A stretch of 64,000 bases of DNA from an uncultured Bdellovibrionales bacterium (GCA_964580285.1 CAZOKB010000001.1:73366-137365), one strand, 5' to 3'; shown: positions 2,907 through 39,766, counted from the stretch's first letter. Program-made: numbers and translations. The notes: a model not told the origin generated them from the sequence alone.

Positions 2907-4610
2907 ATGGCTGTATGGAAGTTTCGTAGAAAAGAGCGCGCGTTGTTGCCGGGCGTAGGTCATCCTGTAACCAGTATGTTACTTGAGGCTCGGGGGTATG
3001 CGGATCCGGAAGCGCAAGCGTCTTTTTTTTCTCCCCAGTATGATCGTGATCTCCACGATCCGTTTTTGTTTTCTCAAATGGAACGAGCGGTCGAACGGAT
3101 CAAACAGGCGCTTTCGGCCCAAGAGGTTATCGGGATTTTTGGAGATTATGATGCGGACGGCGTGACTTCTTCGGTGGTCATGCGCGAAGCTTTGGAAGCT
3201 CTTGGAGGCAGAGTAGCGGTGTATATCCCGCAGAAAGATACGGAAGGACATGGGTTGAATTCCCAGGCACTCCATTTTTTTGTTGAGCAGGGAGCGAAAC
3301 TTATCATGACGCTTGACTGCGGCATGATGAATCACAAGGAAATTGAGGAAGCGAATGCTCTTGGTTTGGAAGTGATCATTGTCGATCATCACCATGTGCC
3401 GGAAATGCTCCCAGCCGCGTACGCCATTATCAATCCGAAATTGCCCGGAGAGACGTATCCTTTCCAGGATCTGTGCGGGGCGGGGACGGCGTTCAAGGTC
3501 GCTCAGGCATTGTTTCGTCGCTTGGCTCCAGAACAGGAAGAGCAGTTAAAGTGGCTGTTGGATGTGGTGGCGACGGGGACGGTGGCAGATGTGATGCCCC
3601 TCGTTGGCGAGAATCGGGTACTGGTGACCTATGGTCTGGTGGTGCTTTCGCGTACGCGCCGTGTGGGTTTTCAAGCGCTGTTCCAGGTGGGCAAATTGTC
3701 TATCGATGAAGAACGCCGGCCGACAGCGAGGGATATCGGGTTTCAGATCGCTCCGCGCATCAATGCGGCTTCGCGTATGGCGCACGCCATGCTCGCGCAT
3801 AATCTTTTGGTGGAGCAGAATACGGAGCGGGCACTCGAGTTAGCGCTGGAACTTGAAGCGCACAATGTGGCTCGTCAGAAATTAAGTACTTTAGCCACAG
3901 ATCGGGTCAGGTGTTTAGTGGAAGAACAGTATCAAGGAAAGAAATTTATCTTTGCTGTAGGAGAGGAGTATCCCTTTGGTATCGTTGGTTTGATAGCGGG
4001 TCGAGTGGCGAGCACGTATCGGAAACCGACCTGTGTGCTCTATCGAGGCGAGCATGAGAGTATGGGATCGTTTCGGAGTATTCCGGAGTTCAACATTATC
4101 GAAGCGATTGAACAGTGCGCGGATCTTTTGGTGAAATTCGGCGGGCACTCTCAGGCAGCAGGCATGACGATCAAGAATGAGCATCTTGAAGATTTCTATA
4201 CGCGTTTCAGTGGATTGGTAGAAAAAAAGCTAGAGGATGTTGTGACTGAACCGGAATTGTGGATTGATATGCTGCTCGATCCGAGAGATGTAGTTCCAGA
4301 GCTGGTAGCGGATATAACACGTTTTGCTCCTTTTGGTGAAGGGAACCCTGAGCCGGTGTTCTGTTTGACAGATATGGTGGTTCGGCAGGTGCGTTTTGTA
4401 GGGAATGGGAATAAGCACTTGAAACTTTCTCTCGAGACGAGTGACGGGTCTAAAATTTTTGATGCGATTGGTTTTTCGCTCGGAGAGAAGTTTTTGGATA
4501 TGGCTCCAGGGGATCGATTTGACGTGGCTTTTAACTTGGAAGAGAATGTGTGGAATGGACGAACATCCATTCAGTTGAAACTGATTGATTTGGTGCAGAA
4601 AGGAGAATAG
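2907..4610 (+). CDS. recJ: single-stranded-DNA-specific exonuclease RecJ
   Basis: DHH motifs (DYDADGVTS, DHHH) and overall RecJ architecture. Confidence 0.85.
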   Translation: MAVWKFRRKERALLPGVGHPVTSMLLEARGYADPEAQASFFSPQYDRDLHDPFLFSQMERAVERIKQALSAQEVIGIFGDYDADGVTSSVVMREALEALGGRVAVYIPQKDTEGHGLNSQALHFFVEQGAKLIMTLDCGMMNHKEIEEANALGLEVIIVDHHHVPEMLPAAYAIINPKLPGETYPFQDLCGAGTAFKVAQALFRRLAPEQEEQLKWLLDVVATGTVADVMPLVGENRVLVTYGLVVLSRTRRVGFQALFQVGKLSIDEERRPTARDIGFQIAPRINAASRMAHAMLAHNLLVEQNTERALELALELEAHNVARQKLSTLATDRVRCLVEEQYQGKKFIFAVGEEYPFGIVGLIAGRVASTYRKPTCVLYRGEHESMGSFRSIPEFNIIEAIEQCADLLVKFGGHSQAAGMTIKNEHLEDFYTRFSGLVEKKLEDVVTEPELWIDMLLDPRDVVPELVADITRFAPFGEGNPEPVFCLTDMVVRQVRFVGNGNKHLKLSLETSDGSKIFDAIGFSLGEKFLDMAPGDRFDVAFNLEENVWNGRTSIQLKLIDLVQKGE

Positions 4611-26570: not shown

Positions 26571-28811
26571 ATGAGCATGCAAGATGACATTGCTTTTTTC
26601 GCCAAAACGAACTTCCGTAATCAGGAGCGGGTGTTTGGTATCAAGATGGACGACCGTCGCCGACACATGTATGTGATCGGGAAGACGGGTATGGGGAAAA
26701 CCAATCTCCTTGAGAACCTGGTGATTCAGGATATCCAAAAAGGCCACGGCGTGGCGTTTGTCGACCCGCATGGTGATACGGCCGAGAAACTGATCAAGGC
26801 TATCCCAGCCAATCGGATCAACGATGTGATCTATTTCAACCCGTCTGATCAGGATTTCCCGATCGCTTTTAACGTGATGGAAAAAGTAGGTCCGGAATAT
26901 CGGCACCTGGTGGCTTCCGGTTTGGTGGGTGTATTCAAAAAAATCTGGGCAGATTCGTGGGGACCTCGGCTTGAATATATTTTACGGAACGCTATTTTGG
27001 CGCTTCTCGAATACCCGGGGGCTACCCTCTTAGGGGTAACGCGTATTTTGGTAGACAAGGGCTATCGGGAACGAGTGGTAGAAAAGGTAACAGATCCGGT
27101 CGTGAAGAGTTTCTGGGTGGATGAGTTTTCCAAATGGAATGACCGTGTTCTTCAAGAGGTTATCTCGCCGATCCAGAACAAAGTTGGGCAGTTTCTTTCG
27201 AGCTCGCTCATCCGGAATATTGTAGGCCAGACCACATCCTCGTTCGATGTGCGTGCGGCTATGGATAGCCGGAAGATTCTCATTATGAACCTTTCAAAGG
27301 GGCGTATTGGAGAAGATAACAGCGCGCTCCTCGGGGCCATGATGATTACCAAGATCCAGCTCGCGGCTATGGGCCGGGTGGATATGCCAGAAGAAGATCG
27401 GGCAGATTTCTATCTCTATGTCGATGAGTTCCAGAATTTCGCTACGGAATCATTCGCGAATATTCTTTCTGAGGCGAGAAAGTATCACCTCAATCTCGTC
27501 TTGGCCAATCAGTACGTGACGCAGATTGATGAGAAAGTACGGGATGCTATTTTCGGTAATGCAGGCAGCATCATCGCGTTTCGGGTTGGGGCGACCGATG
27601 CGGAATTTCTTGAAAAAGAATTTGATCCTGTTTTTCTCATGAATGACATTGTTAATCTCCCTAAGTACCATATTTACCTCAAACTCATGATTGATGGTAT
27701 TGCGGGGGATGCTTTTAGTGCTGTTTCTCTTCCGCCGATCCGATTGGATCAGACTGAGGAAAACGCCGAAAAAGTCATTCGAATTTCTCGAGAACGGTAC
27801 GCTGCCAACAAAGGGGAAGTGGAAGATAAAATCCGTCGCTGGAGCGGCTTGTTAACGGAAGAGGAAAAAGCGGCGCTCTATAGTGGTGGTGCAGCAGAAC
27901 GACGTTCATTGGAACGACCAGCGCCCAGGGCGGTTCCTCGTCCGGCGGCTACTGTGCCGAAAAAATCAACCGTGATAAGTAGTCGGCCAGCGGCACGGCC
28001 AGTAACACCAGTGGCTGCTCCGCCGCGCCCAGTGACGCCGGTTCCAAAACCGATACCGCAAGCGGTGGTGCCCCAGAAACCCGCAAGGGAACCGGAAGTG
28101 TCGGTAGCCAAGGTTCAAGCGTCTGTACCGGTGCAGGCCGAGACACCCGTGGTTGCCTCGAACCCACTGATAGGTACTGAAGGAGTGAAAAAGGATGCCC
28201 CAACACCTGTTTTTGACCCACGGAAGTTTCAACCGAACCTCATCCGCTGGTCGGGTCATGAAGAGACGGCTAAGAAAAAAGAGGAAGCGCTGCAACAAGA
28301 AGAGCTAACCAATACACCGCCAGTTGAGGAGACAGTGGCGTCCAGCGTTACTCACGAGCCGGTACCGGTTATTGAAATACCAGAGTCAGAAGAAGTATCT
28401 TTGGCAGCAGCAGCGTCGGAGGCAGAGCGTGATGAAGTGCCTGAGAAGGTGTTGTATCCAGCAGCGTGCGCCACGTGCGGTATCGATATCGAGGTTCCGT
28501 TTGAGCCTGTACCGGGGCGCCCCACTTTCTGTAAAGACTGTCTGAAAGATTATCAGCGAGCGACGGCGAAGGCTCGTCGAGAAATGGAATCAAAACAGCA
28601 TCCAATGACTACGACTGCCTCTCTGACACGTTCGTGTACTCCGTCACAACGGCATATGCAGCCACAACGACATATACCGACAGAAGCACCAATGTCGCTC
28701 GCACAGATGCAGCATATCCAGCCGAAAAAATTCAAAACAATCCGTAAAAAACCGGATATTGATTTAGGGGATGTACGTTCGATGATTCAGGCTGTCAGAA
28801 AGGCTCAGTAG
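26571..28811 (+). CDS. TraD/VirD4/HerA-like (type IV coupling protein-like) P-loop ATPase with a Pro/Ala/Val-rich tail and C-terminal C4 zinc ribbon
   Basis: Walker A GKTGMGKTN. T4CP-like LYVDEFQNF...LVLANQY block. Tail repeats of PAARPVTPV. CATCG...CKDC near the C-terminus. Confidence 0.65.
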   Translation: MSMQDDIAFFAKTNFRNQERVFGIKMDDRRRHMYVIGKTGMGKTNLLENLVIQDIQKGHGVAFVDPHGDTAEKLIKAIPANRINDVIYFNPSDQDFPIAFNVMEKVGPEYRHLVASGLVGVFKKIWADSWGPRLEYILRNAILALLEYPGATLLGVTRILVDKGYRERVVEKVTDPVVKSFWVDEFSKWNDRVLQEVISPIQNKVGQFLSSSLIRNIVGQTTSSFDVRAAMDSRKILIMNLSKGRIGEDNSALLGAMMITKIQLAAMGRVDMPEEDRADFYLYVDEFQNFATESFANILSEARKYHLNLVLANQYVTQIDEKVRDAIFGNAGSIIAFRVGATDAEFLEKEFDPVFLMNDIVNLPKYHIYLKLMIDGIAGDAFSAVSLPPIRLDQTEENAEKVIRISRERYAANKGEVEDKIRRWSGLLTEEEKAALYSGGAAERRSLERPAPRAVPRPAATVPKKSTVISSRPAARPVTPVAAPPRPVTPVPKPIPQAVVPQKPAREPEVSVAKVQASVPVQAETPVVASNPLIGTEGVKKDAPTPVFDPRKFQPNLIRWSGHEETAKKKEEALQQEELTNTPPVEETVASSVTHEPVPVIEIPESEEVSLAAAASEAERDEVPEKVLYPAACATCGIDIEVPFEPVPGRPTFCKDCLKDYQRATAKARREMESKQHPMTTTASLTRSCTPSQRHMQPQRHIPTEAPMSLAQMQHIQPKKFKTIRKKPDIDLGDVRSMIQAVRKAQ

Positions 28812-30509: not shown

Positions 30510-31823
30510 ATGGATACTTTTCAAAATGAGAAAGAACCAATGAAAGAATCGATCAAGCCAGCTACTGCTTCTTCAGCGGCTTTCGATTGGGAGCGCCACA
30601 GCCGGTCTTCCTTGAAACTGTTTATGTTCCTTTTGGTGGCTGCCGTGTTTGGTTTCATTGGGGGAACCACGGCTCCTTTCTTTTCAGCTATGCTGAAACA
30701 GCACATGGCCACGCTCTCAACCGGAAAAGAAACATCAACTGGAGAACTTCCAAAACCAGGTCGTCAAGAAGTTTCTTCGCAAGATGATACTATCGTGGTG
30801 GATCTTGTAGGGCGTAATTCTCCAGGTGTCGTCAGTATTGTGATTACGAAAGACGTGCCAAAGGTACGGAATTTTTTCCAGAACCCGTTTTTCTTTGATC
30901 CATTTGGTAGTTCTTTCGGACAACAAAGAGGGTTGGGGGGCGGAGGAACAGAAAAGCAACAGGTAGGGAGTGGGTCCGGGTTTATTGTTTCGGAAGACGG
31001 TTTAGTGGTGACCAACCGGCATGTGGTGGTCGATGCAACAGCGGAGTATACCGTCATCACCAGTGATGGGAAGGAACATGCAGCGACGGTGCTCGCGCGT
31101 GATCCGAATAAAGATATCGCCGTACTTAAGATTGAAGGATCGAATCTGCCGGTACTTGATTTGGGGGATTCGGATACGGTGAAGGTGGGCCAGACGGTGA
31201 TTGCTATCGGGAATCCTTTAGGGGAATTTGCTAATTCCGTCACTCGCGGGATTATTTCTGGCGTAAAACGCGAGGTATATGCGGGCTCATCGAGGAGTGG
31301 TCAGTCTGAACAGCTTTCCGGAATTTTCCAGACGGATGCCGCTATTAATCCAGGGAATTCCGGTGGTCCACTTTTTAATTTGTCTGGTGAAGTGATTGGC
31401 GTAAATGTTGCGATGGCACAGGGGGCGGAAAATATCGCCTTTGCCCTGCCGATCAACCAAGTGAAGCGCGTTATTGATGAGGTGAAGACTACGGGGAAGA
31501 TTTCAACGCCCTATATTGGCGTGCGCTATCTGATTCTAGATGAAGCTATTGCGAAAGAGAATGGGCTACCGCTTGATCATGGTGCCTTAGTCATTCGTGG
31601 AGAAAAAATGACCGACTTCGCGGTGATTCCTGGTTCACCGGCGGATAAGGCGGGTATTGTTGAGAACGATATTCTCCTTGAGGTGAATGGTACGAAAATT
31701 GATGCACAGCATCAGCTCACAGACCTGATCGGGGACAAGCGTGTGGGGGATGAGATTACCTTGAAAGTGTGGCATAAAGGTGACGCCAAGGATGTAAAGC
31801 TCCGGCTTGAGGAGCGGAAGTAG
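30510..31823 (+). CDS. HtrA/DegP-family serine protease with C-terminal PDZ domain
   Basis: Catalytic triad contexts TNRHVV, DIAVLKI and GNSGGPL, plus a PDZ domain. Confidence 0.85.
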   Translation: MDTFQNEKEPMKESIKPATASSAAFDWERHSRSSLKLFMFLLVAAVFGFIGGTTAPFFSAMLKQHMATLSTGKETSTGELPKPGRQEVSSQDDTIVVDLVGRNSPGVVSIVITKDVPKVRNFFQNPFFFDPFGSSFGQQRGLGGGGTEKQQVGSGSGFIVSEDGLVVTNRHVVVDATAEYTVITSDGKEHAATVLARDPNKDIAVLKIEGSNLPVLDLGDSDTVKVGQTVIAIGNPLGEFANSVTRGIISGVKREVYAGSSRSGQSEQLSGIFQTDAAINPGNSGGPLFNLSGEVIGVNVAMAQGAENIAFALPINQVKRVIDEVKTTGKISTPYIGVRYLILDEAIAKENGLPLDHGALVIRGEKMTDFAVIPGSPADKAGIVENDILLEVNGTKIDAQHQLTDLIGDKRVGDEITLKVWHKGDAKDVKLRLEERK

Positions 31824-31866
31824 CGGAAAAGAGAATAGAGAATAGGGAATATTGAATAGTGGGATA

Positions 31867-31892
31867 AAGAGGCTTTTTAAAGCCTCTTTTAG
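31867..31892 (+). terminator. hairpin terminator after htrA (AAGAGGCT-ttttaa-AGCCTCTT, then TTTT)
   Basis: Perfect 8-bp inverted repeat at 31867-31888 followed by a short T-run. Confidence 0.55.
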
Positions 31893-31894
31893 TA

Positions 31895-31923
31895 TTGACA
31901 AAAATATGTAAATATGCTATTTT
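31895..31923 (+). promoter_or_regulatory. sigma70-like promoter of the island (TTGACA, 17 nt spacer, TGcTATTTT)
   Basis: Consensus -35 at 31895-31900 and extended -10 at 31915-31923. It is followed by a ~90 nt 5'-UTR with inverted repeats CTTGATC/GATCAAG and TGTGC/GCACA. Confidence 0.45.
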
Positions 31924-32014
31924 CTCTTGATCCCTGAGTCTGTGCATGGGGCACAATAACTCTTTGTGATCAAGCCGTTCTTTGGCAAATCAACCCTTCT
32001 TTAGGAGAAATACC

Positions 32015-32662
32015 ATGGCAAAAGCTGCCACTCAAGTACAAGACTCCCTCAAGCGCGTCATGCTGACCCTCGAGGGCATCCGGCCGCTCCTCATCAATAC
32101 CATGACGCCGTTTGAAGTCATGGCGCTGAACAAAGATCTTGCGCCGGACGCTGTCAACAAGGTGAAGGCATTGAAGCAGATGACACTGCCCGAGCAGATC
32201 AAGGTGAAGTACGAGCTCTGGCGCGATCCGGAAACCGGCAAGGTCGGCATTTGGTCGCACATGCTCTACGCTGCTCTGGTCGGCGCCGGCAAGTTCATCA
32301 AGTACGAGGGCAACATGAAGCTCTCGACTTCGAAGAGTTCGCTCGTGCCGAGTTTCCTTACCATCGTCGATGAACACCTACCCTTCGTTGATCAGGGTTC
32401 GGACGGGAAGGGAACGCCGTATACGGACGACTACCGGCGTGGCGAGGCCAATCAGGGCAGCGGTGCCGTGTGCGTCGCTCGTCCCATGATCGGAAGCGGC
32501 TGGCGGGTCGGTGTGGATATCGAGGTGGAGACCACTCTTCTCGATCTCGTCCGTACCCGCGAGCTCTTCGACAAGGCGGGGCGCATGTCTCGCTTGGGCT
32601 CTTTCCGCACCAAGGCTGACTTCGGGATGTTCCGGGTCGCCGAGTGGGAAGTGATGAACTAA
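32015..32662 (+). CDS. hypothetical protein (215 aa) and first gene of the GC3-rich island, of unrecognised family
   Basis: ATG at 32015 preceded by AGGAGA. Strongly GC3-biased codons unlike the flanking genes. Confidence 0.6.
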   Translation: MAKAATQVQDSLKRVMLTLEGIRPLLINTMTPFEVMALNKDLAPDAVNKVKALKQMTLPEQIKVKYELWRDPETGKVGIWSHMLYAALVGAGKFIKYEGNMKLSTSKSSLVPSFLTIVDEHLPFVDQGSDGKGTPYTDDYRRGEANQGSGAVCVARPMIGSGWRVGVDIEVETTLLDLVRTRELFDKAGRMSRLGSFRTKADFGMFRVAEWEVMN

Positions 32663-32674
32663 TATCACTCACGC

Positions 32675-34918
32675 AACTGCGGCGACTTCGGTTGCCGCAG
32701 TTCTCAAGTGTATTTGCAAGAGTATACTTGAGACTCTGCTTTTGAAAGAGAGCAGGGTATAGAGAGTATAGCAATGTATTCTTGTGCTACATTCGGTTTC
32801 GCGGATTTTTGTTTTGGATCGATCCTCTGCTTCAGCACGATCGATCATCTTATAAGGATTCGCAAGAGTTTTTATAAGACTTCGCTTTCGAAAAAGAGTG
32901 AAGCGAAAGATGCAGTTGTGTCGTATGCTGAGCTGTTAGGTATTTTGACCCAGTGTCCTTTATTGGCTCGTACCTCTATGAAAATATGCACGAGCATCTA
33001 AAGCATTTTGGTGACAGAATGTTTTGGACAATCTCTTCGTAAGAGGGGATTGTAATGTTGTTATGCAGCGCCGTGTGTTCTTCTTTCCTATACTTTCGCG
33101 TATCCTAGTGGACCGAGCCTCTCCACCAACGCTCGGTCATCCCTGAATACTTTCAAGAAGAGAGTATTGAGGACAACATCCTCGCAAGAGGGGGTTGTAC
33201 AGTAGTTTCGACTTAAGCTAAGCGTTGTTCTTTGACCTAATTTCCACAAGTGTTCTGGACTGAGCCTCTCCGTCAATGACGGACGCTCGGTCATCCTAAG
33301 CGCTTTTGTGAAAGAGTGTTTAGGACAGCATCCTCGTAAGAGGGGGTTGTGAAGTGTAAGTTCGGACTTGTAAAATTACGCAGTCCAAACTCCGCACGAG
33401 TTCTTTATATTACTGGAGCGAACCTCTCCGCCCAAGGCGGACGTTCGCTCGCTGTTCGCGGGATGTATGTCTCGCCTGATGAGCCGGAAACGGCGAAAAC
33501 AGTCGTTCTTTGATACGGTATCCTACCGTAGAGCTAACAGAAGTTATCCTAATTCGCTTCCTGTTTTGGCTCGTACCTCTGCTTTGGTACGTACGAGCAC
33601 CTTAAATATATTGGGAACAGTGTATTTAAGGCATCATCTTCGAAAAAGGATGATGTACTGGGTAGTGTTGGGTCTCGTCAAGCAACGAAAAGTTACCTTG
33701 GATCCTTTCCTGGATCAGCCCTCTGCCTCGGTACGACTGATCATCTTATGAGTATTCGCAAGAGTGTTCATAAGACTCTTCTCTTGGAAGAGAGTAGAGT
33801 GATTCCAGTTACATCCAGTTACGTACTGCTCTCCGTCGTAGTTTATGTTTCTGGCTCGCACCTCTGCTTCGGTACGTACGAGCATCCAAAGCATTTTAGA
33901 AACAGAATGTTTTGGACAATTTTCTTGGAAGAGAAAATTGTGAAGGGAATAATCTCCTATACCGTTGCGCAACGTACGGTCATGTAGCGTAGCGTAATGG
34001 ACCGAGTCTCTGTATAAATTCATACACGCTCGGTCATCTTATGAATATTTGCAAGAGTGTTCATAAGACTCTGCTTTCGAAAGAGAGCGGGGTACAGTAG
34101 TGTGCCGTCATGCATAGTGCAGTAATGTTTTTTACTGGCTCGTATCTCTGTGCAAGCATGTACGAGCAACTTAAATGCATTGTAAGCAGTGTATTTAAGA
34201 CTTCGCTTTCGCAAGAGAGTGAGGTGAAAGATGCAGTTTTGTCGCATGCTGTGTTGTTAGGTATTTTTATCTAGTGTCCTTTATTGGCTCGTGCCTCTAC
34301 TTCGGCACGCACGAGCACCTTAAACGCATTTACAGAAGTGTGTTTAAGACTTTGCTTTCGAAAGAAAGTAAGGTGTACCAATCTCGTAGCGTGTGGCATA
34401 GTTTTCTTCGGATCGGTGCTTTATTCTAAAGGCTCGCATCTCTCTGTTTCGGCGGATGTGTGAGCATCTTAAGTGCATTTGCAAAAGTGTATTTAAGACT
34501 TCGCTTTCGCAAGAGAGCAGAGTATTTCTGTAAAGCACTGTGGCGTACTGTGGCGTGAACTTCTTTGGACTGAATTGGAGCGGTCTGAATTGCTGGCTTG
34601 CGTCTCTGCGAAAGTACGCGCGAGCACCAAAAGTATTTTGGTAACAGAATATTTTGGGTATTATCTTCGCAAGAGGGTGATACTTGTAGATACGTATTCT
34701 CCGGTCCTGAACTGTGTGTTAAATCAATGCAATGGCTCGTACCTCTCTGTTTCGGCAGACGTACGAGCATCCTGAATATTTTCGAAAAGAGAATATTGAG
34801 GACAATCTCTTCGCAAGAGGGGGTTGTCATAGTAGCATCGTGTTGAGCTAGGTCATCTAGTGCACGTGTATAGTAAATTACTGGACCGAGCCTCTTCGTT
34901 AATGACGAACGCTCGGTC
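32675..34918 (+). repeat. tandem array of about 16 degenerate structured-RNA modules with ~146-nt period. Each module is hairpin E1 (5' stem arm then CCTCT), hairpin E2 (10-bp AT-rich stem), GNRA-tetraloop hairpin E3 (CYYYC-GNAA-GAGRG then GGGKTGT), then a ~50-nt variable linker
   Basis: E1 starts at 32675, 32817, 32965, 33110, 33257, 33415, 33568, 33712, 33853, 33998, 34137, 34285, 34430, 34595, 34733, 34882. Stems covary (GGCTCGTAC/GTACGAGC, GGACCGAGC/GCTCGGTC, GGAGCGAAC/GTTCGCTC, GGCTCGTGC/GCACGAGC, GGATCGATC/GATCGATC). ORFs in the region are repeat translations. Confidence 0.7.
33450..33504 (+). ncRNA. type III hammerhead ribozyme HHR-1, with predicted self-cleavage 3' of C33457
   Basis: Stem III CGCUGUU/AACAGUG. 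GUC-like site UUC, cleaved after it. Stem I GCGGG-atgtatgt-CTCGC. Core CUGAUGA at 33476-33482. Stem II GCCG-GAAA-CGGC, then GAAA at 33495-33498. Confidence 0.8.
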
Positions 34919-35018
34919 GCTGTCGGTAGGTGTGTGCCTATCCTGATGAGCCCAGCACTTACATCATCCGATTCATTGATGGTGTAAGTGCATTCCGTAA
35001 GTGCTGGGCGAAACAGCG
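34918..35018 (+). ncRNA. type III hammerhead ribozyme HHR-2, with predicted cleavage 3' of C34924, ending 30 nt upstream of the helicase start codon (in its 5'-UTR)
   Basis: Stem III CGCUGU/ACAGCG (6 bp). Cleavage site GUC at 34922-34924, cleaved after it. Stem I GGUAGG-ugugug-CCUAUC. CUGAUGA at 34943-34949. 12-bp stem II CCCAGCACUUAC/GUAAGUGCUGGG with a 34-nt loop. GAAA at 35010-35013. Confidence 0.85.
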
Positions 35019-35048
35019 TCATGGTTCATTTCCAAGAGGAGTTTGCAC

Positions 35049-36839
35049 ATGCAAACACATATCATGCAGTTTTTCCCGTACGAGAAGTACGAGCAGCCGA
35101 CAGCGCTGCAGGAAACAGCACTTGCCTTTATCGGCGAAAACGCTTCTTTTGGCCCCGTCGTCACTGAGCTCCCCACCGGGACCGGCAAGACCGCCATTGG
35201 CATCGCGTATTTGCGCGCCATGAGTCAGCCGAAACGTGTGAACTTCTACCTGGTTTCGAACAAAGTGCAGGCAGAGCAGGTGAAGTTGATGCACCCCGAG
35301 GTTGAAATCATGCTCGGCCGAAGCGAGCATCAGTGTCTCTATTACGAAGGTGAACAGGTGAACGCGGAAGAGATTCCGTGCATGGCTCTCAAGGACTGTC
35401 CGCATCGTGTGCACCAGCAAAGCGGCGAGACGCATACACTGGGCGCGATTCCGTGTCCGTACCTCAAGCAGAAGTACGACACGAAAAGTGCTCAGATCGT
35501 TGTTGCGACGGTCCCGTTTTATCTCTGCGCTGTTTTCTTCGGGAAGCAGTACGACGTGGGGGCTGTGGTGGTTGACGAGGCGCATAATATCGCCAAGATC
35601 GTGCGTGGGAGCTTGTCGCACCGTCTCTCCAATCACAAGTTGGAGCGGATGATCGGCGTGCTCGAACACTCAGGTTTCGGCGACGAAGCGGAAACGCTCG
35701 GACAGTTCCTCAAGCTGGTGCGTTCTACGATCACAAGGAATAAGAAACAAGAACGTTCGACGCTCGGGACGACGGAAGTGGAGAAGCTGCTTGGGACTTT
35801 GCGCGGGATTGATCGACGCAAGATTGAGGAAGCGATGTATGCTTCGCTCAAGCAGGGTATTCTCAATCCGGTGAGCGACCGCGATCTCTTGAAGCAATTC
35901 GAGGTGCTCTCGCGGGATCTCAAACGTTACATCAACTCGCTGGAGTTCTCTTTGCCGCAGGGTGATCATAAGCCGCTTGCGTATGCGTTTGGGTATCTGG
36001 ATCCGGAGTACGAGGACGGGAAGAAAGACTTTGCACTGGTGATCAAGAATTATCATGTCGCTGGTCTCATCCACCACATGCTTCCGGAGAAGACACTCGC
36101 GTACTCGGCAACCATCGGCGACGCGGAATGTTTCGGTTTTGAAACCGGGCTGCGTGGCGCGTTCACTTCACTTGAGTCGGAATTTGCTCATGAGAAGACG
36201 CGTATCTATATGCCGACCGACACGCAGGATCTTGCGTACGACAGTCGTGGTAATCGCGATGTAGCACGTTCGCTCCGGCTTGTAGCGCGTAGTGTCGCCA
36301 AGTTCAACATGCAAGGGTTGCGATCGCTCGTGGTGCTCGTATCTGAAGACGAACGGCAGCGGTTCTTGCGGATGTGTCCGGAAGCAGAACTAAACGGCGG
36401 AGCTCTTGAAGCTGTTTCGTACGGCAAAGGGGTGACAGCACGGGAAGCCGCGGTGCGGTTTAAGGATGGCGTTGGCGATGTGCTTGTGGGGACGGTGTCG
36501 CAGTACGGCGAGGGGGTTGATCTCCCGAATCGCATTGCACCGGTCATTTTTTATCTCCGACCGGCCTATCCCAATCCCTATGAACCGGAAGCGCAGTTTG
36601 AAGCTAGTCGGTACGGATCGCGCCGGTTTGCGGTTTGGAACTGGCGGGTGATGAACGATCTTCTGCAAGTGCGAGGGCGCAATATCCGCTCGGTGAATGA
36701 CGAAGGGGTCACCTTTCTCATTTCCCAGCAGTTTCGCAAGTTCGCCCGCCCGACACTTCCGAAGTGGCTCCTGCCGGCGTACGTGGCCGACAAGAGTATG
36801 GAAGAGTGCGTGGATGACGCGATGCGACTTCTCGTTTAA
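35049..36839 (+). CDS. DinG/XPD (Rad3)-family FeS-cluster DEAH-box helicase
   Basis: Motif I LPTGTGKT. Four-cysteine FeS insertion (HQCLYY...CMALKDCP...CPY). Motif II VVDEAHN. Strong SD AAGAGGAG 7 nt before ATG 35049. GC3-rich like the island ORF. Confidence 0.75.
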   Translation: MQTHIMQFFPYEKYEQPTALQETALAFIGENASFGPVVTELPTGTGKTAIGIAYLRAMSQPKRVNFYLVSNKVQAEQVKLMHPEVEIMLGRSEHQCLYYEGEQVNAEEIPCMALKDCPHRVHQQSGETHTLGAIPCPYLKQKYDTKSAQIVVATVPFYLCAVFFGKQYDVGAVVVDEAHNIAKIVRGSLSHRLSNHKLERMIGVLEHSGFGDEAETLGQFLKLVRSTITRNKKQERSTLGTTEVEKLLGTLRGIDRRKIEEAMYASLKQGILNPVSDRDLLKQFEVLSRDLKRYINSLEFSLPQGDHKPLAYAFGYLDPEYEDGKKDFALVIKNYHVAGLIHHMLPEKTLAYSATIGDAECFGFETGLRGAFTSLESEFAHEKTRIYMPTDTQDLAYDSRGNRDVARSLRLVARSVAKFNMQGLRSLVVLVSEDERQRFLRMCPEAELNGGALEAVSYGKGVTAREAAVRFKDGVGDVLVGTVSQYGEGVDLPNRIAPVIFYLRPAYPNPYEPEAQFEASRYGSRRFAVWNWRVMNDLLQVRGRNIRSVNDEGVTFLISQQFRKFARPTLPKWLLPAYVADKSMEECVDDAMRLLV

Positions 36840-36860
36840 TTTGGATCAGCTGATCCAATT

Positions 36861-36890
36861 GGCCTACTACTAAAATAGTAGGCCTTTTTC
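36861..36890 (+). terminator. rho-independent terminator of the island (GGCCTACTA-ctaaaa-TAGTAGGCC then TTTTT)
   Basis: Perfect 9-bp stem followed by a T-run, 22 nt after the helicase stop. Confidence 0.75.
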
Positions 36891-36901
36891 TTTTTCCTAA
36901 A

Positions 36902-36928
36902 TTAGCACTCTAGTACTGAGATTGCTAA
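36902..36928 (+). promoter_or_regulatory. CIRCE element (HrcA operator) upstream of clpB
   Basis: TTAGCACTC-N9-GATTGCTAA matches the consensus TTAGCACTC-N9-GAGTGCTAA with one mismatch. Confidence 0.65.
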
Positions 36929-37117: not shown

Positions 37118-39766
37118 ATGAACATCAACAAATTCACTACTAAAAGTCAGGAGGCGCTCCGGCACGCACAGGAGATTGCTTTGTCACGCAATAATCCGCA
37201 GATGGAGATCGCGCATCTTCTTTATGCGCTCCTCATGCAGGAAGATTCTATTGTGCCGGTGGTGATCGGAAAGTTAGGGATAGATATCGAGGTGGTACGA
37301 GGAGCCGTGCTGGATGAGATTGATAAGTTCCCGCGGGCTGAATCTGGGGCGATCGGCCAATTGTATCTGGCTCCGCATTTGGCACAGGTCTTTGCTGAGG
37401 CTGAAAAAGAAATGCAGAAAATCGGCGATACGTTTGTTTCGACGGAACACTTGCTGTTAGCTGTACTCTTGGTGCCGAGTCATGTGAAGTCGGCTCTTGA
37501 AAGTATGCAGGTGCGGTACGATGTCGTCTTGACGATGCTTAAGGAGGTGCGCGGTAATCAACGGGTGGAGAGTCAAGAACCGGAACAAACTTATCAAGCG
37601 CTGGAAAAATATGCCCTTAATCTTACCAAGCAGGCACGCGAAGAAAAGCTGGATCCTGTGATCGGTCGGGATGAAGAAATTCGCCGGGTGATGCAGGTCC
37701 TGTCACGGCGCACGAAGAATAATCCGGTACTGATCGGTGAGGCGGGTACGGGGAAGACGGCAATCGCGGAGGGTTTGGCGCAGCGGATCGTTTCGGGTGA
37801 TGTTCCCGAAAGTCTTAAGGAAAAAGAAATTATTTCGCTCGACTTAGGGGCGCTCTTGGCGGGAGCCAAGTTCCGAGGAGAATTTGAAGAACGCTTGAAA
37901 GCCATTCTGAAAGAGGTAGAGCGTTCAGCAGAGCGGTTCATTCTCTTTATCGATGAAATCCATACGCTCGTGGGGGCGGGAGCGACCGATGGAGCGCTGG
38001 ACGCTTCGAATATGCTGAAGCCGGCTTTGGCTCGAGGAAAGCTTCGGACGATTGGTGCTACTACGCTGAAGGAATATCAAAAATATATTGAGAAAGACGC
38101 GGCGTTTGAGCGGCGTTTTCAGCCGGTGTTTGTGAGTGAACCTTCAGAAGAGGACGCTATCGCTATTCTTCGGGGCATTAAGGAAAAGTATGAATTGCAT
38201 CATGGTGTGAAGATAGATGATGATGCGCTGATTGCAGCGGTGCGTTTATCACGCCGCTATATCAGTGACCGCTTCCTTCCGGACAAGGCTATCGACCTGA
38301 TTGATGAAGCTGCTTCGCTTCGGCGCATGGAAATTGATTCGATGCCGGAAGATTTGGATCAGTTGGAGCGGAATATCCGTCGACTGGAAATTGAGAAACG
38401 GGCGTTGGAAAAAGAGCGCGAGGCATCAGCCAAAAAGAAGATTGCTGCTATCAACCGGGAACTTTCTGAATTACGGGAACGCAGCCAGAAATTTTCTCTG
38501 CAATGGAAAGCGGAACGTGAACTGATCGCGGCTATACGGGCGCGTAAGGAAGAACTGGACCGCTACCGTTCGGAAGCGGATAGTGCTGAGCGGCGAGGCG
38601 AACTGGATCGGGTCGCGGAGATTCGCTATGGATTGATTCCTGAAACTGAGAAAAAGATGCGAGCGGAGGAAAAGAAGCTGGAAGGTTTGCAACAGTCAGG
38701 ATCCATCTTGCGGGAAGAGATTACGGAGGAAGAAATAGCGGCGGTGGTCTCGCGCTGGACGGGGGTACCTATAAAGAAGATGCTTGCAGGAGAAGAAGAA
38801 AAGCTGGTGTATATGGAAAAGGCTCTGCAAGAACGGGTGATCGGGCAGGATGATGCCATCCGTGTCGTTGCACAGGCGATTCGGCGTTCCCGGACCGGTC
38901 TGTCGGAAGAAGGTCGGCCGATTGGATCTTTTATGTTCCTCGGTATGACGGGTGTTGGAAAAACGGAGCTGGCTAAGGCGCTGGCGGCCTTCCTCTTTGA
39001 TGATGAACGGGCGTTGGTGCGGGTAGATATGAGTGAATACATGGAAGCGCATGCCACGGCCAAACTGATTGGATCACCTCCGGGGTATGTGGGGCACGAT
39101 GAGGGAGGACAGTTGACGGAGACGATTCGTCGGCGGCCGTATAGCGTGATCCTGTTTGATGAAATTGAAAAAGCCCATCCAGAAGTTTTCAATATTTTCT
39201 TGCAGATTCTGGATGATGGCCGGCTCACCGATGCCAAAGGGCGGGTGGTGAATTTCAAGAATAGTGTCATTATCATGACGTCGAATGTCGGCTCCGATGT
39301 TCTGCTGAGGATGCAGGCACTTGGTTTCCAGGGGGAGCGCAAAGATCGGGATGATCCACGAGAAGAAGATATGAAGTCGAAAATTATGGCCAGCTTGAAA
39401 GAAACATTTCGGCCGGAGTTTTTGAACCGTATTGACGAGATCGTGGTCTTTCATCCGCTTTCGAAGCAGGCGATTCGGAATATTGTGGATGCTGAATTGA
39501 AAAAATTGGATCGTCGACTTGCGGTACAAGAGATTCGTATAGAATGGCCAGAGAGCGTGCGGAAGCACTTGGCAGAAAAGGGGTATGATCCGCTCTACGG
39601 TGCGCGGCCGCTCAAGCGGGTGATACAGAACGATATTCTTGATGTACTGGCTCTGGATATCCTGGAGAAAAAATGGGAGGCCGGCCGATGGCTTCGGGCT
39701 TCAGTAGAGAAGGGGCGAATAGCTTTCGGGGTACGCCGTCCGATTCAAAAGAGGAAAAAGATCTAA
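37118..39766 (+). CDS. clpB: ATP-dependent chaperone ClpB
   Basis: Clp N-domain, NBD1 (GEAGTGKTA), long coiled-coil middle domain, NBD2 (GMTGVGKTE) and the ClpB C-terminus. Confidence 0.9.

What the first reader, a model, noticed from the sequence alone, without database searches (positions are those of the whole stretch)
31866..36900. Compositionally foreign about 5 kb island carrying the protein, RNA array and helicase cassette
Seen: the 215-aa ORF and the helicase use strongly GC3-biased codons (CTC, GGC, AAG, GTC, CGC). The flanking htrA and clpB do not. The cassette has its own promoter (TTGACA-17-TGcTATTTT at 31895-31923) just after the htrA terminator. It also has a 5'-UTR with nested inverted repeats (CTTGATC...GATCAAG, TGTGCATGGGGCACA), and a strong terminator at 36861-36890 just before the clpB CIRCE. 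This points to horizontal acquisition of the whole unit as a module. Helicases with accessory RNA and protein on foreign islands are typical of defence or mobile-element functions.
Basis: partly seen in the sequence, partly recalled or inferred. Interest (0 to 1): 0.6.

Follow-up and report, generated by a model that had tools for sequence, protein, structure and literature searches.

The report
VIPR RNA-guided system with DinG helicase
The 5-kb island is an inserted VIPR system, an RNA-guided DNA-recognition system related to CRISPR that was first described in 2026. It has a small Cas7-like Vipr protein, 15 guide RNAs made of 5-base repeats, two hammerhead ribozymes and a DinG/XPD-type helicase, and it sits in a Moranbacteria (CPR) chromosome.

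Summary
The two genes have the highest GC3 of 46 ORFs in the window (0.76 and 0.66, against a mean of 0.50). The promoter, the 5'-UTR hairpin and the terminator are all present.

- **Protein:** the 215-aa protein is a Vipr homologue (profile match to the SUSP1 Vipr structure, E 1.5e-13; Cas7/Csm3-like fold).
- **RNA array:** it holds 15 vrRNA guide tracts of 8-13 pentamers with consensus N-G-Y-N-N. Each tract is capped by a covarying hairpin.
- **Separators:** units are separated either by a conserved double hairpin or by one of two type III hammerhead ribozymes.
- **Helicase:** it is an Fe-S XPD/DinG-type enzyme.
- **Linkage:** in 22 of 22 helicase-retrieved metagenomic loci with enough upstream sequence, a Vipr gene lies upstream on the same strand.

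Thirty-four related Moranbacteria loci lack both genes, and several have htrA next to clpB, so this is an insertion. In homologous guides the NN positions are conserved while positions 1 and 3 drift, which fits the published dinucleotide code. No target was found.

Verdict: a new member of the recently described VIPR class, of the helicase-associated kind that has not been characterised. One caveat: the high GC3 is a trait of the whole family, not only a mark of recent transfer.

The parts
31867..31890 (+). Hairpin plus T-run (terminator-like) at the left edge of the cassette
   Evidence: Read from the sequence. Homology to L001 and L002 starts at 31868/31869. Each homologue has its own hairpin just before the -35 box.
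31895..31923 (+). Sigma-70-type promoter TTGACA-17-(TG)cTATTTT
   Evidence: 10 of 12 matches, with a TG extension. The -35 and -10 boxes are conserved in L001-L005.
31928..31975 (+). Conserved 5'-UTR nested hairpin (CTTGATC...GATCAAG around TGTGC-loop-GCACA), followed by GTTCTTTG at 31977-31984 and the RBS AGGAG at 32003-32007
32015..32662 (+). vipr: 215-aa single-RRM RAMP (Cas7-like) protein
   Evidence: A family profile hits PDB 36pp_D 'SUSP1 Vipr protein' at E 1.5e-13 over the full length. phrog_4652 matches all 74 family members. The AF2 model has pLDDT 90.7. The best Foldseek matches are Csm3/Cas7 of CRISPR types III-A and VII, from E 3e-7. The family has 409 representatives.
32677..32700 (+). 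Plain UUCG-loop hairpin just after the vipr stop codon, followed by the first hp2-hp3 module (32702-32758)
   Evidence: Tail model R1 scores 57 bits at 32675-32763.
32675..34924 (+). vrRNA array: 15 units, each a pentamer tract plus hairpin hp1. Units are separated by hp2-hp3 double hairpins (13 times) or by a hammerhead ribozyme (twice)
32759..32814 (+). Guide tract w1 (11 pentamers). The NN code is kept in the L002 orthologue.
32907..32963 (+). Guide tract w2 (a paralogue of w11)
33054..33108 (+). Guide tract w3
33199..33255 (+). Guide tract w4
33351..33413 (+). Guide tract w5. Its hp1 (33414-33450) is followed directly by HH1.
33451..33502 (+). Hammerhead ribozyme 1 (type III). The predicted cleavage site is after C33457.
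   Evidence: Rfam RF00008 scores 27 bits, E 0.017. It folds as a canonical three-way junction. The L001 orthologue shows compensatory changes in stems I and II.
33504..33566 (+). Guide tract w6, which begins right after HH1. The L001 orthologue keeps the NN code.
33657..33710 (+). Guide tract w7
33802..33851 (+). Guide tract w8
33942..33997 (+). Guide tract w9
34096..34135 (+). Guide tract w10 (8 pentamers)
34227..34284 (+). Guide tract w11
34376..34429 (+). Guide tract w12
34525..34593 (+). Guide tract w13 (13 pentamers)
34684..34732 (+). Guide tract w14. The NN code is kept in the L001 orthologue.
34828..34881 (+). Guide tract w15. Its hp1 (34882-34918) is followed directly by HH2.
34919..35022 (+). 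Hammerhead ribozyme 2 (type III, with a 52-nt insertion in stem II). The predicted cleavage site is after C34924.
   Evidence: Rfam RF00008 scores 34 bits, E 1.7e-4. The L001 orthologue scores 39.5 bits. A hammerhead lies directly upstream of the helicase gene in 12 of 29 related loci.
35049..36839 (+). Accessory (vap-type) helicase of 596 aa: an SF2 XPD/DinG-family enzyme with Walker A PTGTGKT, a DEAH box and four conserved Cys (Fe-S cluster)
   Evidence: Pfam Helicase_C_2 and DEAD_2. PADLOC typeIV_DinG model PDLC01439 matches the full length at E 2e-33. NCBIfam rad3/DinG matches are weak. The best PDB matches are archaeal XPD at E 1e-6. Invariant residues are listed.
36861..36894 (+). Intrinsic terminator closing the cassette

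Best explanation
The island is a complete VIPR (Viral Interference Programmable Repeat) system of the helicase-associated kind. It was inserted as one transcription unit between htrA and clpB of a Candidatus Moranbacteria (Patescibacteria) chromosome.

**Transcription and processing.** One promoter drives vipr, a 2.3-kb precursor of 15 vrRNAs, and a DinG/XPD-type helicase gene. Each vrRNA has a tract of 8-13 pentamers (N-G-Y-N-N) and a 3' capping hairpin (hp1). Transcripts are cut just 3' of hp1. At two places a type III hammerhead does this. The second cut also releases the helicase mRNA. At the other 13 junctions the cut is made at or next to a conserved pair of hairpins with GNRA-type loops (hp2-hp3), by an unknown nuclease (inferred).

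**Target recognition.** By homology with SUSP1 Vipr, Vipr protomers polymerise on the tract, one per pentamer. They hold the G-Y part and present the two following bases (positions 4-5). These read double-stranded DNA with every third target base skipped.

**Role of the helicase.** It is then inferred to act on the bound target, strengthening interference by unwinding DNA or displacing polymerases. This is analogous to DinG in type IV-A CRISPR systems.

**Likely role.** Silencing or exclusion of phages or other mobile elements of the host.

**Shown here:** gene identities, array anatomy, pentamer periodicity, covarying hairpins, the ribozyme motifs, the Vipr-helicase linkage, the insertion, and the conservation pattern of the code positions.

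**Inferred:** RNP assembly, DNA targeting, the role of the helicase, the processing at hp2-hp3, and the biological targets.
For: **Vipr identity**
- Full-length profile match to the solved SUSP1 Vipr.
- phrog_4652 matches 74 of 74 family members.
- The confident AF2 model resembles Csm3/Cas7. It also resembles three viral proteins of about 200-250 aa, one of them annotated as a RAMP superfamily protein.

**Guide tracts**
- Position 2 is G in 55% of pentamers. Position 3 is T in 76%, C in 16% and G in 0%.
- GY autocorrelation has z = 11.8 at lag 5 and 9.4 at lag 10.
- Tract lengths of 8-13 repeats are close to the published 9-16. The consensus matches the published alternative YNNNG.

**Code positions**
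- In four homologous tract pairs the mismatch rates at positions 1-5 are 0.43, 0.09, 0.32, 0.09 and 0.15.
- NN positions against positions 1+3: 11/91 against 32/86, Fisher p = 1e-4.

**Tails and separators**
- 23 of 31 base pairs show compensatory changes across 21 copies.
- A model built from them finds only the cassette in the window, plus two copies in the distant locus L064. There hp2-hp3 and hammerheads occupy the same slot.

**Hammerheads:**. Hammerhead-interspersed VIPR arrays and helicase accessory genes are reported in 10.64898/2026.04.26.720920.

**Module linkage**
- 22 of 22 helicase-retrieved loci with enough upstream DNA carry a Vipr gene upstream on the same strand.
- All the gaps between the two genes carry a period-5 signal at 4-27 times the control rate.
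- Vipr and helicase pairwise identities are correlated (Pearson 0.76).

**Insertion:**
Against: - No target was found. There are no matches above shuffled controls in the 64-kb window under 0-3-nt skip rules, or in 1.2 Mb of fetched loci.
- Five IMG/VR pattern scans gave chance-level numbers of hits, with no convergence of several guides on one contig.
- The G of the motif is present in only 55% of pentamers, so the repeats are more degenerate than SUSP1's GGY.
- The hammerhead scores are below Rfam's gathering threshold.
- No RNA data exist for this locus, so the unit boundaries and the processing at hp2-hp3 are models.
- The helicase mechanism has not been studied in any VIPR system.
- This helicase is nearer to XPD than to solved CasDinG chains by sequence.
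Confidence: 0.85

Rival explanations
1. A degenerate or minimal type IV CRISPR-Cas system: a Cas7-like protein plus CasDinG, with an unusual CRISPR array.
For: The helicase matches PADLOC typeIV_DinG (CAS-IV-A associated) over its full length at E 2e-33. The Vipr fold is Cas7/Csm3-like.
Against: - The repeats are about 95-nt structured units only 60-80% identical, which evolve by compensatory change and unit duplication. They are not short identical CRISPR repeats.
- The 'spacers' are period-5 tracts.
- PADLOC Cas models do not hit the 215-aa protein.
- No csf1, csf3 or cas6-like gene lies in the cassette.
- Other Csf4 models match only weakly (E 6e-4 or worse).
- The best PDB relatives are XPD.
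Confidence: 0.03
2. The system is a VIPR, but it has been domesticated for regulating host genes, or genes of the organism the CPR cell lives on, rather than for defence against mobile elements.
For: - The location is chromosomal, among housekeeping genes. There is no prophage and no defence island nearby.
- Guide NN codes are conserved between lineages, as expected for stable targets.
- No viral target was found.
- This helicase family is absent from IMG/VR and from GenBank phages.
Against: - No self-target exists in the 64-kb window. The rest of the genome was not available.
- The cassette is patchily distributed and mobile, which is more typical of conflict systems.
- The published host-encoded VIPR types with enzymatic accessory genes have guides that match viruses.
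Confidence: 0.1
3. The array is a set of structured small RNAs unrelated to guiding (for example scaffolds or decoys), and the helicase is an RNA chaperone for them.
For: The three hairpins are strongly conserved, and the guide function is not demonstrated for this locus.
Against: - The variable stretches have the 5-nt periodicity specific to vrRNAs.
- Their substitution pattern spares exactly the two positions predicted to carry information.
- The adjacent protein is homologous to a protein shown to bind such RNAs.
- Fe-S XPD/DinG helicases act on DNA (established knowledge of the family).
Confidence: 0.02

Closest known systems
VIPR systems (Viral Interference Programmable Repeat), bioRxiv 10.64898/2026.04.26.720920 and 10.64898/2026.04.26.720927. 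The closest are the types reported to carry enzymatic accessory genes (types III-V) and hammerhead-interspersed arrays (types I and V).
   Same: - A Vipr RAMP protein of about 200 aa.
- Guide RNAs built of pentanucleotide repeats with two variable bases.
- A structured 3' cap.
- A minimal locus of vipr plus one accessory gene.
- Hammerhead ribozymes inside the array.
- A helicase accessory gene.
- Some members are chromosomal.
   Different: - The repeat consensus is N-G-Y-N-N (the published alternative 'YNNNG'), not GGY/NN.
- The cap is a hairpin (hp1), not the SUSP1 pseudoknot.
- Most units are separated by a conserved double hairpin (hp2-hp3) that occupies the same slot as a hammerhead. That layout is not among the array architectures named in the paper's text.
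- The host is a CPR bacterium.
- The paper's type number could not be assigned, because its supplementary data are not held.
SUSP1 / Pseudomonas fulva type II VIPR (the experimentally characterised systems)
   Same: Homologous Vipr (E 1.5e-13 by profile), with the shared motifs RP..f..W and AG..G.GD.RP....FGRF.V. The guide length is similar.
   Different: - The type II systems are encoded by phages or prophages.
- Their accessory gene is a DNA-binding protein, not a helicase.
- They have 3-4 vrRNAs, not 15.
- They have no ribozymes.
- tblastn finds no direct similarity to any GenBank phage.
Type IV-A CRISPR-Cas (Csf complex plus CasDinG)
   Same: A filament of Cas7-like RAMP subunits on a guide RNA, combined with a DinG-family 5'-3' helicase and no nuclease. 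Interference is expected to occur without cleavage. One PADLOC typeIV_DinG model matches the helicase over its full length.
   Different: - No CRISPR array, and no Csf1, Csf3 or Cas6.
- The helicase keeps four Fe-S cysteines. CasDinG is described as having only a vestigial Fe-S domain (from my own knowledge, not tested here).
- No solved CasDinG chain was matched at E 0.01 or better.
Type III hammerhead ribozymes (Rfam RF00008)
   Same: The CUGAUGA and GAAA cores, three helices, and a cleavage triplet (UUC or GUC) at the expected place.
   Different: - The scores are below the gathering threshold.
- HH2 has a 52-nt insertion in stem II.
- The ribozymes are used here as processing devices within an operon.

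Membership tests
VIPR system | Vipr protein: a single-RRM RAMP homologue with a G-loop and a thumb | tested here: met
   The family profile hits the SUSP1 Vipr chain 36pp_D over residues 1-191 of 202 at E 1.5e-13. phrog_4652 matches 74 of 74 members. The AF2 model (pLDDT 90.7) matches Csm3/Cas7 at probability 1.0. The C-terminal G-rich motif LGSFRTKADFGMFRV can be read from the sequence.
VIPR system | vrRNAs made of tandem pentanucleotide repeats (GGY/NN or a related consensus), about 9-16 units | tested here: met
   There are 15 tracts of 8-13 pentamers with consensus N-G-Y-N-N. Lag-5 z = 11.8. This corresponds to the alternative YNNNG consensus named in the paper. The same periodicity is found in the gaps of 19 related loci.
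VIPR system | A conserved structured element capping the 3' end of each repeat tract | tested here: met
   hp1 follows every tract. Across 21 copies of the three hairpins (hp1-hp3), 23 of 31 pairs covary. The structure differs from the SUSP1 pseudoknot.
VIPR system | A minimal locus (vipr plus an accessory vap gene) with no CRISPR array and no adaptation genes | tested here: met
   The cassette holds only vipr, the array and the helicase between one promoter and one terminator. Its repeats are not CRISPR-like. The rest of the window was not screened for cas genes.
VIPR system | NN dinucleotides specify a DNA target under the 1-nt skip rule | tested here: inconclusive
   Indirect support: NN positions are conserved while positions 1 and 3 drift in homologous guides (p = 1e-4). 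No natural target was found. Binding cannot be tested with these tools.
VIPR system | vrRNAs are expressed, processed and bound by Vipr | not testable with these tools
   This needs small-RNA sequencing and pull-downs.
Type IV CRISPR-Cas | A CRISPR array of short near-identical repeats with unique spacers | tested here: not met
   The units are about 145-150 nt. Their conserved part is 60-80% identical with compensatory changes, and the variable parts are period-5 tracts.
Type IV CRISPR-Cas | Csf1, Csf2, Csf3 (and Cas6/Csf5) effector genes | tested here: not met
   PADLOC finds no Cas family for the 215-aa protein. No further genes lie in the cassette.
Type IV CRISPR-Cas | CasDinG (Csf4) helicase | tested here: inconclusive
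   One typeIV_DinG model matches the full length at E 2e-33, but the Csf4_IVA and IVE models reach only E 6e-4 to 9e-3. The nearest solved structures are XPD.
XPD/DinG Fe-S helicases (SF2) | Walker A, a DEAH box, four Cys in the Fe-S domain, and a Helicase_C_2 domain | tested here: met
   PTGTGKT at 42-48, DEAH at 176-179, and C96, C111, C117 and C136 are invariant in three orthologues. Pfam DEAD_2 and Helicase_C_2 both match.
Hammerhead ribozyme type III (RF00008) | Conserved core, three helices and a cleavage triplet | tested here: met
   Both copies align to the full core. HH1 folds canonically. Orthologues in L001 and L006 score 26-47 bits, with compensatory changes. All scores are below the gathering threshold of 48.5 bits, and catalysis cannot be tested here.

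The most novel reading that the evidence does not exclude
The Vipr-DinG loci form a distinct branch of VIPR with two new features.

1. A conserved double hairpin with GNRA-type loops (hp2-hp3) is a new kind of guide-RNA separator or processing signal. It is interchangeable with a hammerhead ribozyme.
2. A RAMP filament recruits an Fe-S DinG/XPD helicase to an RNA-specified DNA site. This would be the functional counterpart, and perhaps the evolutionary source or sister, of type IV-A CRISPR interference.

In a CPR bacterium with a reduced genome, such a system might also target the DNA of the cell it lives on.
Probability: 0.25. Interest if true: 0.65.

Novelty: new member of a known kind. Interest (0 to 1): 0.45.

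Why it matters
VIPR was described only in 2026, and its helicase-associated forms have not been characterised. This locus is a compact natural example of 5 kb with two proteins and 15 guides.

It offers several things that can be tested:
- a defined grammar of (tract-hp1)-[hp2-hp3 or hammerhead];
- comparative evidence that only positions 4-5 of each pentamer carry information in a variant (N-G-Y-N-N) repeat;
- a tight linkage between Vipr and a DinG/XPD helicase, seen in 22 of 22 loci.

It could serve as a starting construct to ask what the helicase adds to RNA-guided DNA binding, and how vrRNAs are matured without a Cas6. It also places VIPR in a CPR (Moranbacteria) chromosome.

Tried and rejected
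- **Pfam, NCBIfam and PADLOC on the 215-aa protein:** no hit. The word-indexed protein search found only four close relatives. The exhaustive profile search was needed to see the family.
- **Vipr-pattern scans** of GTDB genomes and JGI metagenomes: nothing.
- **tblastn of Vipr and the helicase** against GenBank phages: no match. The helicase scan of IMG/VR found none.
- **CRISPR reading:** rejected (see the rival explanations).
- **Rfam on the array:** only the two hammerheads. The weak mir-33 and SCARNA7 matches are chance. hp2-hp3 matches no known ribozyme family at E 1 or better.
- **Self-targeting:** none under skip rules of 0-3 nt.
- **Target scans in IMG/VR:** five guide patterns with 18-20 specified bases gave 2, 4, 3, 1 and 0 hits. 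This is about the number expected by my rough estimate of chance. Extensions were 18-22 matched bases with no second guide on any contig. The single w1 hit (L094) lies in an AT-rich stretch of a 33%-GC contig. I treat all of these as chance.
- **tRNA adjacency** as an integration signal: not consistent across loci.
- **Calibrating GC3 against highly expressed genes:** the window holds none that can be recognised.
- **The 5'-UTR hairpin as a decayed hammerhead:** the topology and core do not fit (reading).
- **ORFs called inside the array,** such as 34426-35022 on the minus strand: no support, and they overlap the structured repeats.


Full report
**1. The observation**

ORF listing and composition profiles show two genes on the + strand between htrA (30510-31823) and clpB (37118-39766). 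One encodes 215 aa (ATG 32015 to 32662) and the other about 600 aa. About 2.3 kb without credible coding lies between them.

Among 46 non-overlapping ORFs of at least 150 aa, these two genes have the highest GC3: 0.76 and 0.66. The window mean is 0.50 (sd 0.08), htrA is 0.48 and clpB is 0.54.

- The promoter at 31895-31923 and the terminator at 36861-36884 are found by the consensus scan.
- The CIRCE operator is at 36902-36928.
- The promoter, the nested 5'-UTR hairpin and the RBS are conserved in five homologous loci.

**2. The protein**

Pfam, NCBIfam and PADLOC give nothing for the 215-aa protein. The word-indexed search found only four relatives at 79-96% identity.

An exhaustive profile search found 409 cluster representatives at E 1e-3 or better.

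- A 74-sequence alignment of them (A2) matches phrog_4652 in all 74 members.
- As a profile, A2 matches PDB chain 36pp_D, 'SUSP1 Vipr protein', over its full length at E 1.5e-13.
- The AlphaFold model is confident (pLDDT 90.7).
- Its best solved-structure matches are Csm3/Cas7 subunits of CRISPR types III-A and VII.
- In BFVD it matches three viral proteins of about 200-250 aa, one annotated as a RAMP superfamily protein.

**3. What VIPR is**

Two 2026 preprints describe Viral Interference Programmable Repeat systems (10.64898/2026.04.26.720920 and 10.64898/2026.04.26.720927). Their main points:

- A Vipr RAMP polymerises on a vrRNA made of 9-16 pentamers, GGY/NN or the alternatives NNNGG, YNNNG and NNNNG. 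The tract is followed by a structured 3' element.
- The NN bases read double-stranded DNA with one target base skipped per repeat, and this causes transcriptional silencing.
- Seven types exist. Some arrays are interspersed with hammerhead ribozymes.
- Types III-V carry nuclease or helicase accessory genes, whose roles are unknown.

**4. The array**

Repeat finding and direct reading show about 15 units of 145-150 nt. I anchored them on the start of a conserved hairpin (hp1). The roughly 50 nt upstream of each hp1 fall into one pentamer register:

| Pentamer position | Composition |
|---|---|
| 2 | G 55% |
| 3 | T 76%, C 16%, G 0% |
| 1, 4, 5 | variable |

GY autocorrelation has z = 11.8 at lag 5 and 9.4 at lag 10 against shuffles. 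The tracts hold 8-13 pentamers. The consensus N-G-Y-N-N is the paper's 'YNNNG' variant.

The conserved part of the unit is three hairpins, hp1, hp2 and hp3. In 21 copies from the window, L001 and L002, 23 of 31 pairs show compensatory double changes. A covariance model built from them finds only the cassette within the window. It finds nothing in Moranbacteria relatives that lack Vipr. It finds two copies in the distant locus L064.

**5. The ribozymes and the grammar of the array**

Rfam finds two type III hammerhead motifs, at 33456-33498 (27 bits) and 34917-35019 (34 bits).

- Both scores are below the gathering threshold, but both have complete cores.
- HH1 folds as the canonical junction.
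- Orthologues in L001 and L006 score 26-47 bits.
- Stems I and II differ between the window and L001 by compensatory changes.
- The predicted cleavage sites are after 33457 and after 34924.

Each hammerhead follows an hp1 directly, in the slot that hp2-hp3 occupies elsewhere. In L064 the same rule holds, and a hammerhead precedes each protein-coding gene. A hammerhead lies 60-160 nt upstream of the helicase start in 12 of 29 related loci.

I therefore read the array as (tract-hp1) units separated either by hp2-hp3 or by a hammerhead. HH2 also frees the helicase mRNA, whose likely start is ATG 35049.

Whether hp2-hp3 stays attached to a mature vrRNA, and what cuts there, is inferred and not shown.

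**6. The code**

Four homologous tract pairs were compared: w1/L002, w6/L001, w14/L001, and the paralogues w2/w11.

| Pentamer position | 1 | 2 | 3 | 4 | 5 |
|---|---|---|---|---|---|
| Mismatch rate | 0.43 | 0.09 | 0.32 | 0.09 | 0.15 |

For positions 4-5 against positions 1+3 the counts are 11/91 against 32/86, Fisher p = 1e-4.

This is what is expected if G is a protein-binding anchor, position 3 need only be a pyrimidine, position 1 is not read, and positions 4-5 carry target information. The sample is small.

**7. The helicase**

- Pfam Helicase_C_2 and DEAD_2 match.
- NCBIfam rad3 and DinG matches are weak.
- The best PDB hits are archaeal XPD, at E 1e-6.
- PTGTGKT, DEAH and four cysteines are invariant.

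One PADLOC model labelled typeIV_DinG ('CAS-IV-A; associated') matches the full length at E 2e-33. The Csf4 models proper match only weakly.

The helicase is therefore an Fe-S XPD/DinG-type enzyme. A specific kinship with CasDinG is not established.

**8. Linkage**

- L001 (Vipr 82% identical) has vipr, 7 units with 2 hammerheads, the helicase and then clpB.
- L006 (Vipr 38-39% identical) has vipr, a 3.6-kb array with four hammerheads, and the helicase.

A metagenome scan that started from the helicase alone returned 30 loci. All 22 with enough upstream sequence carry a Vipr gene upstream on the same strand, with gaps of 180-3,990 nt.

- Every gap shows a period-5 signal at 4-27 times the rate in helicase coding sequence.
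- Vipr and helicase divergences are correlated.
- Many of these loci also carry a third small gene that this window lacks.

**9. Insertion**

The gene just upstream of htrA retrieves 34 Moranbacteria/Patescibacteria loci that encode close relatives of it (36-60% identity by the scan's best segment).

- Most of these loci show the TraG-FtsB-PpiC backbone, and 31 also have an HtrA hit. clpB, the membrane-protein gene and the second htrA follow where the sequence reaches that far.
- None has Vipr or the helicase.
- In L041, L034, L031, L021 and L020, htrA is followed by clpB after 89-740 nt.
- In the closest relative, L018, the same interval holds 7.6 kb of other genes: Dps, a P-type ATPase, NUDIX and others. 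L019, another close relative, holds a reverse transcriptase downstream of htrA, and no clpB was seen in the 8.6 kb available.

The junction is therefore variable. The 96%-identical Vipr of L002 lies next to gdh and a trxB-like gene that are absent from this window.

**10. Caveat on composition**

In 13 other Vipr-DinG loci with flanking ORFs, vipr GC3 exceeds the flank mean in all 13 (mean +0.19). The helicase exceeds it in 12 (mean +0.09).

The excess is a family trait. It could reflect selection on a protein needed in many copies per guide, or a composition carried between hosts. It is not simply a recent-transfer signal.

**11. Targets**

No self-match above shuffled controls was found. Five IMG/VR scans gave chance-level hits without convergence. 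The biological target remains unknown.

This helicase family was not found in IMG/VR or in GenBank phages. That fits a host-domesticated branch, though the pattern-based search is not exhaustive.

**12. Verdict**

The island is a new member of the recently described VIPR class, of the helicase-associated kind that has not been characterised.

Its separator grammar, its variant repeat consensus and the conservation pattern of its code are useful details. The kind of system itself is already known.

Noticed in passing
L006:3336-3689 and 4163-4549; also L065, L067, L068, L072, L074, L075, L078, L079, L080, L089, L091: A third conserved small gene of about 110-128 aa, with an N-terminus MPLxKxG..RG...HV and no convincing Pfam match. 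It lies inside or just after the array in at least 13 Vipr-DinG loci, sometimes in two paralogous copies. It is absent from this window and from L001. It may be a further accessory gene of this VIPR branch.
   Followed up: partly
window 34943-35016: Stem II of hammerhead 2 carries a 52-nt insertion with two mutually exclusive pairings (arms 34943-62/34997-35016 against 34955-68/34978-91). The second pairing would sequester one strand of stem II. This could act as a switch on cleavage just upstream of the helicase mRNA. The L001 orthologue has a minimal stem II.
   Followed up: no
window 31977-31984 and 33505-33512; L001 about 1354; L006 and L064 after most hammerheads: The motif GTTCTTTG (more generally TTTG[ACT]TCTTTG) follows the 5'-UTR hairpin and most hammerhead ribozymes in several loci. 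The window holds 8 copies against 3.5 expected. Its role is unknown.
   Followed up: partly
13 Vipr-DinG metagenome loci with flanking ORFs, from L064 to L092: vipr has a higher GC3 than its neighbours in every locus examined. One example is L073: flanks 0.27, vipr 0.83, helicase 0.60. This is either a codon bias that travels with the gene or selection for GC-ending codons.
   Followed up: partly
L018:12383-20025 and L019:2492-11123: In the closest Moranbacteria relatives the region downstream of htrA holds other cargo. In L018, between htrA and clpB, it is Dps/ferritin, a P-type ATPase, an AAA kinase, NUDIX and DUF389. L019 has a 351-aa reverse transcriptase downstream of htrA, and no clpB was seen in the 8.6 kb available. 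The junction behaves as a variable hot spot.
   Followed up: partly
window 26571-28811: A TraG/VirD4-like coupling-protein ATPase with a proline-rich linker and a C-terminal treble-clef zinc finger. It is 84-94% conserved across most of the Moranbacteria loci, as part of a fixed TraG-FtsB-PpiC backbone that is usually followed by HtrA. It therefore appears to be a core gene here, not part of a conjugative element.
   Followed up: no
L062, L063, L061, L003-L005: Contigs that carry Vipr homologues repeatedly end right after the vipr gene. This fits assemblies breaking in the repetitive vrRNA arrays. Surveys based on short contigs will under-count the arrays and accessory genes.
   Followed up: no
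L064:11590-11860: In L064 a further stretch of hp1-hp2-hp3, a tract, hp1 and a hammerhead lies downstream of the helicase, directly before another gene that has a strong RBS. Arrays of this VIPR branch can therefore flank the helicase on both sides.
   Followed up: partly
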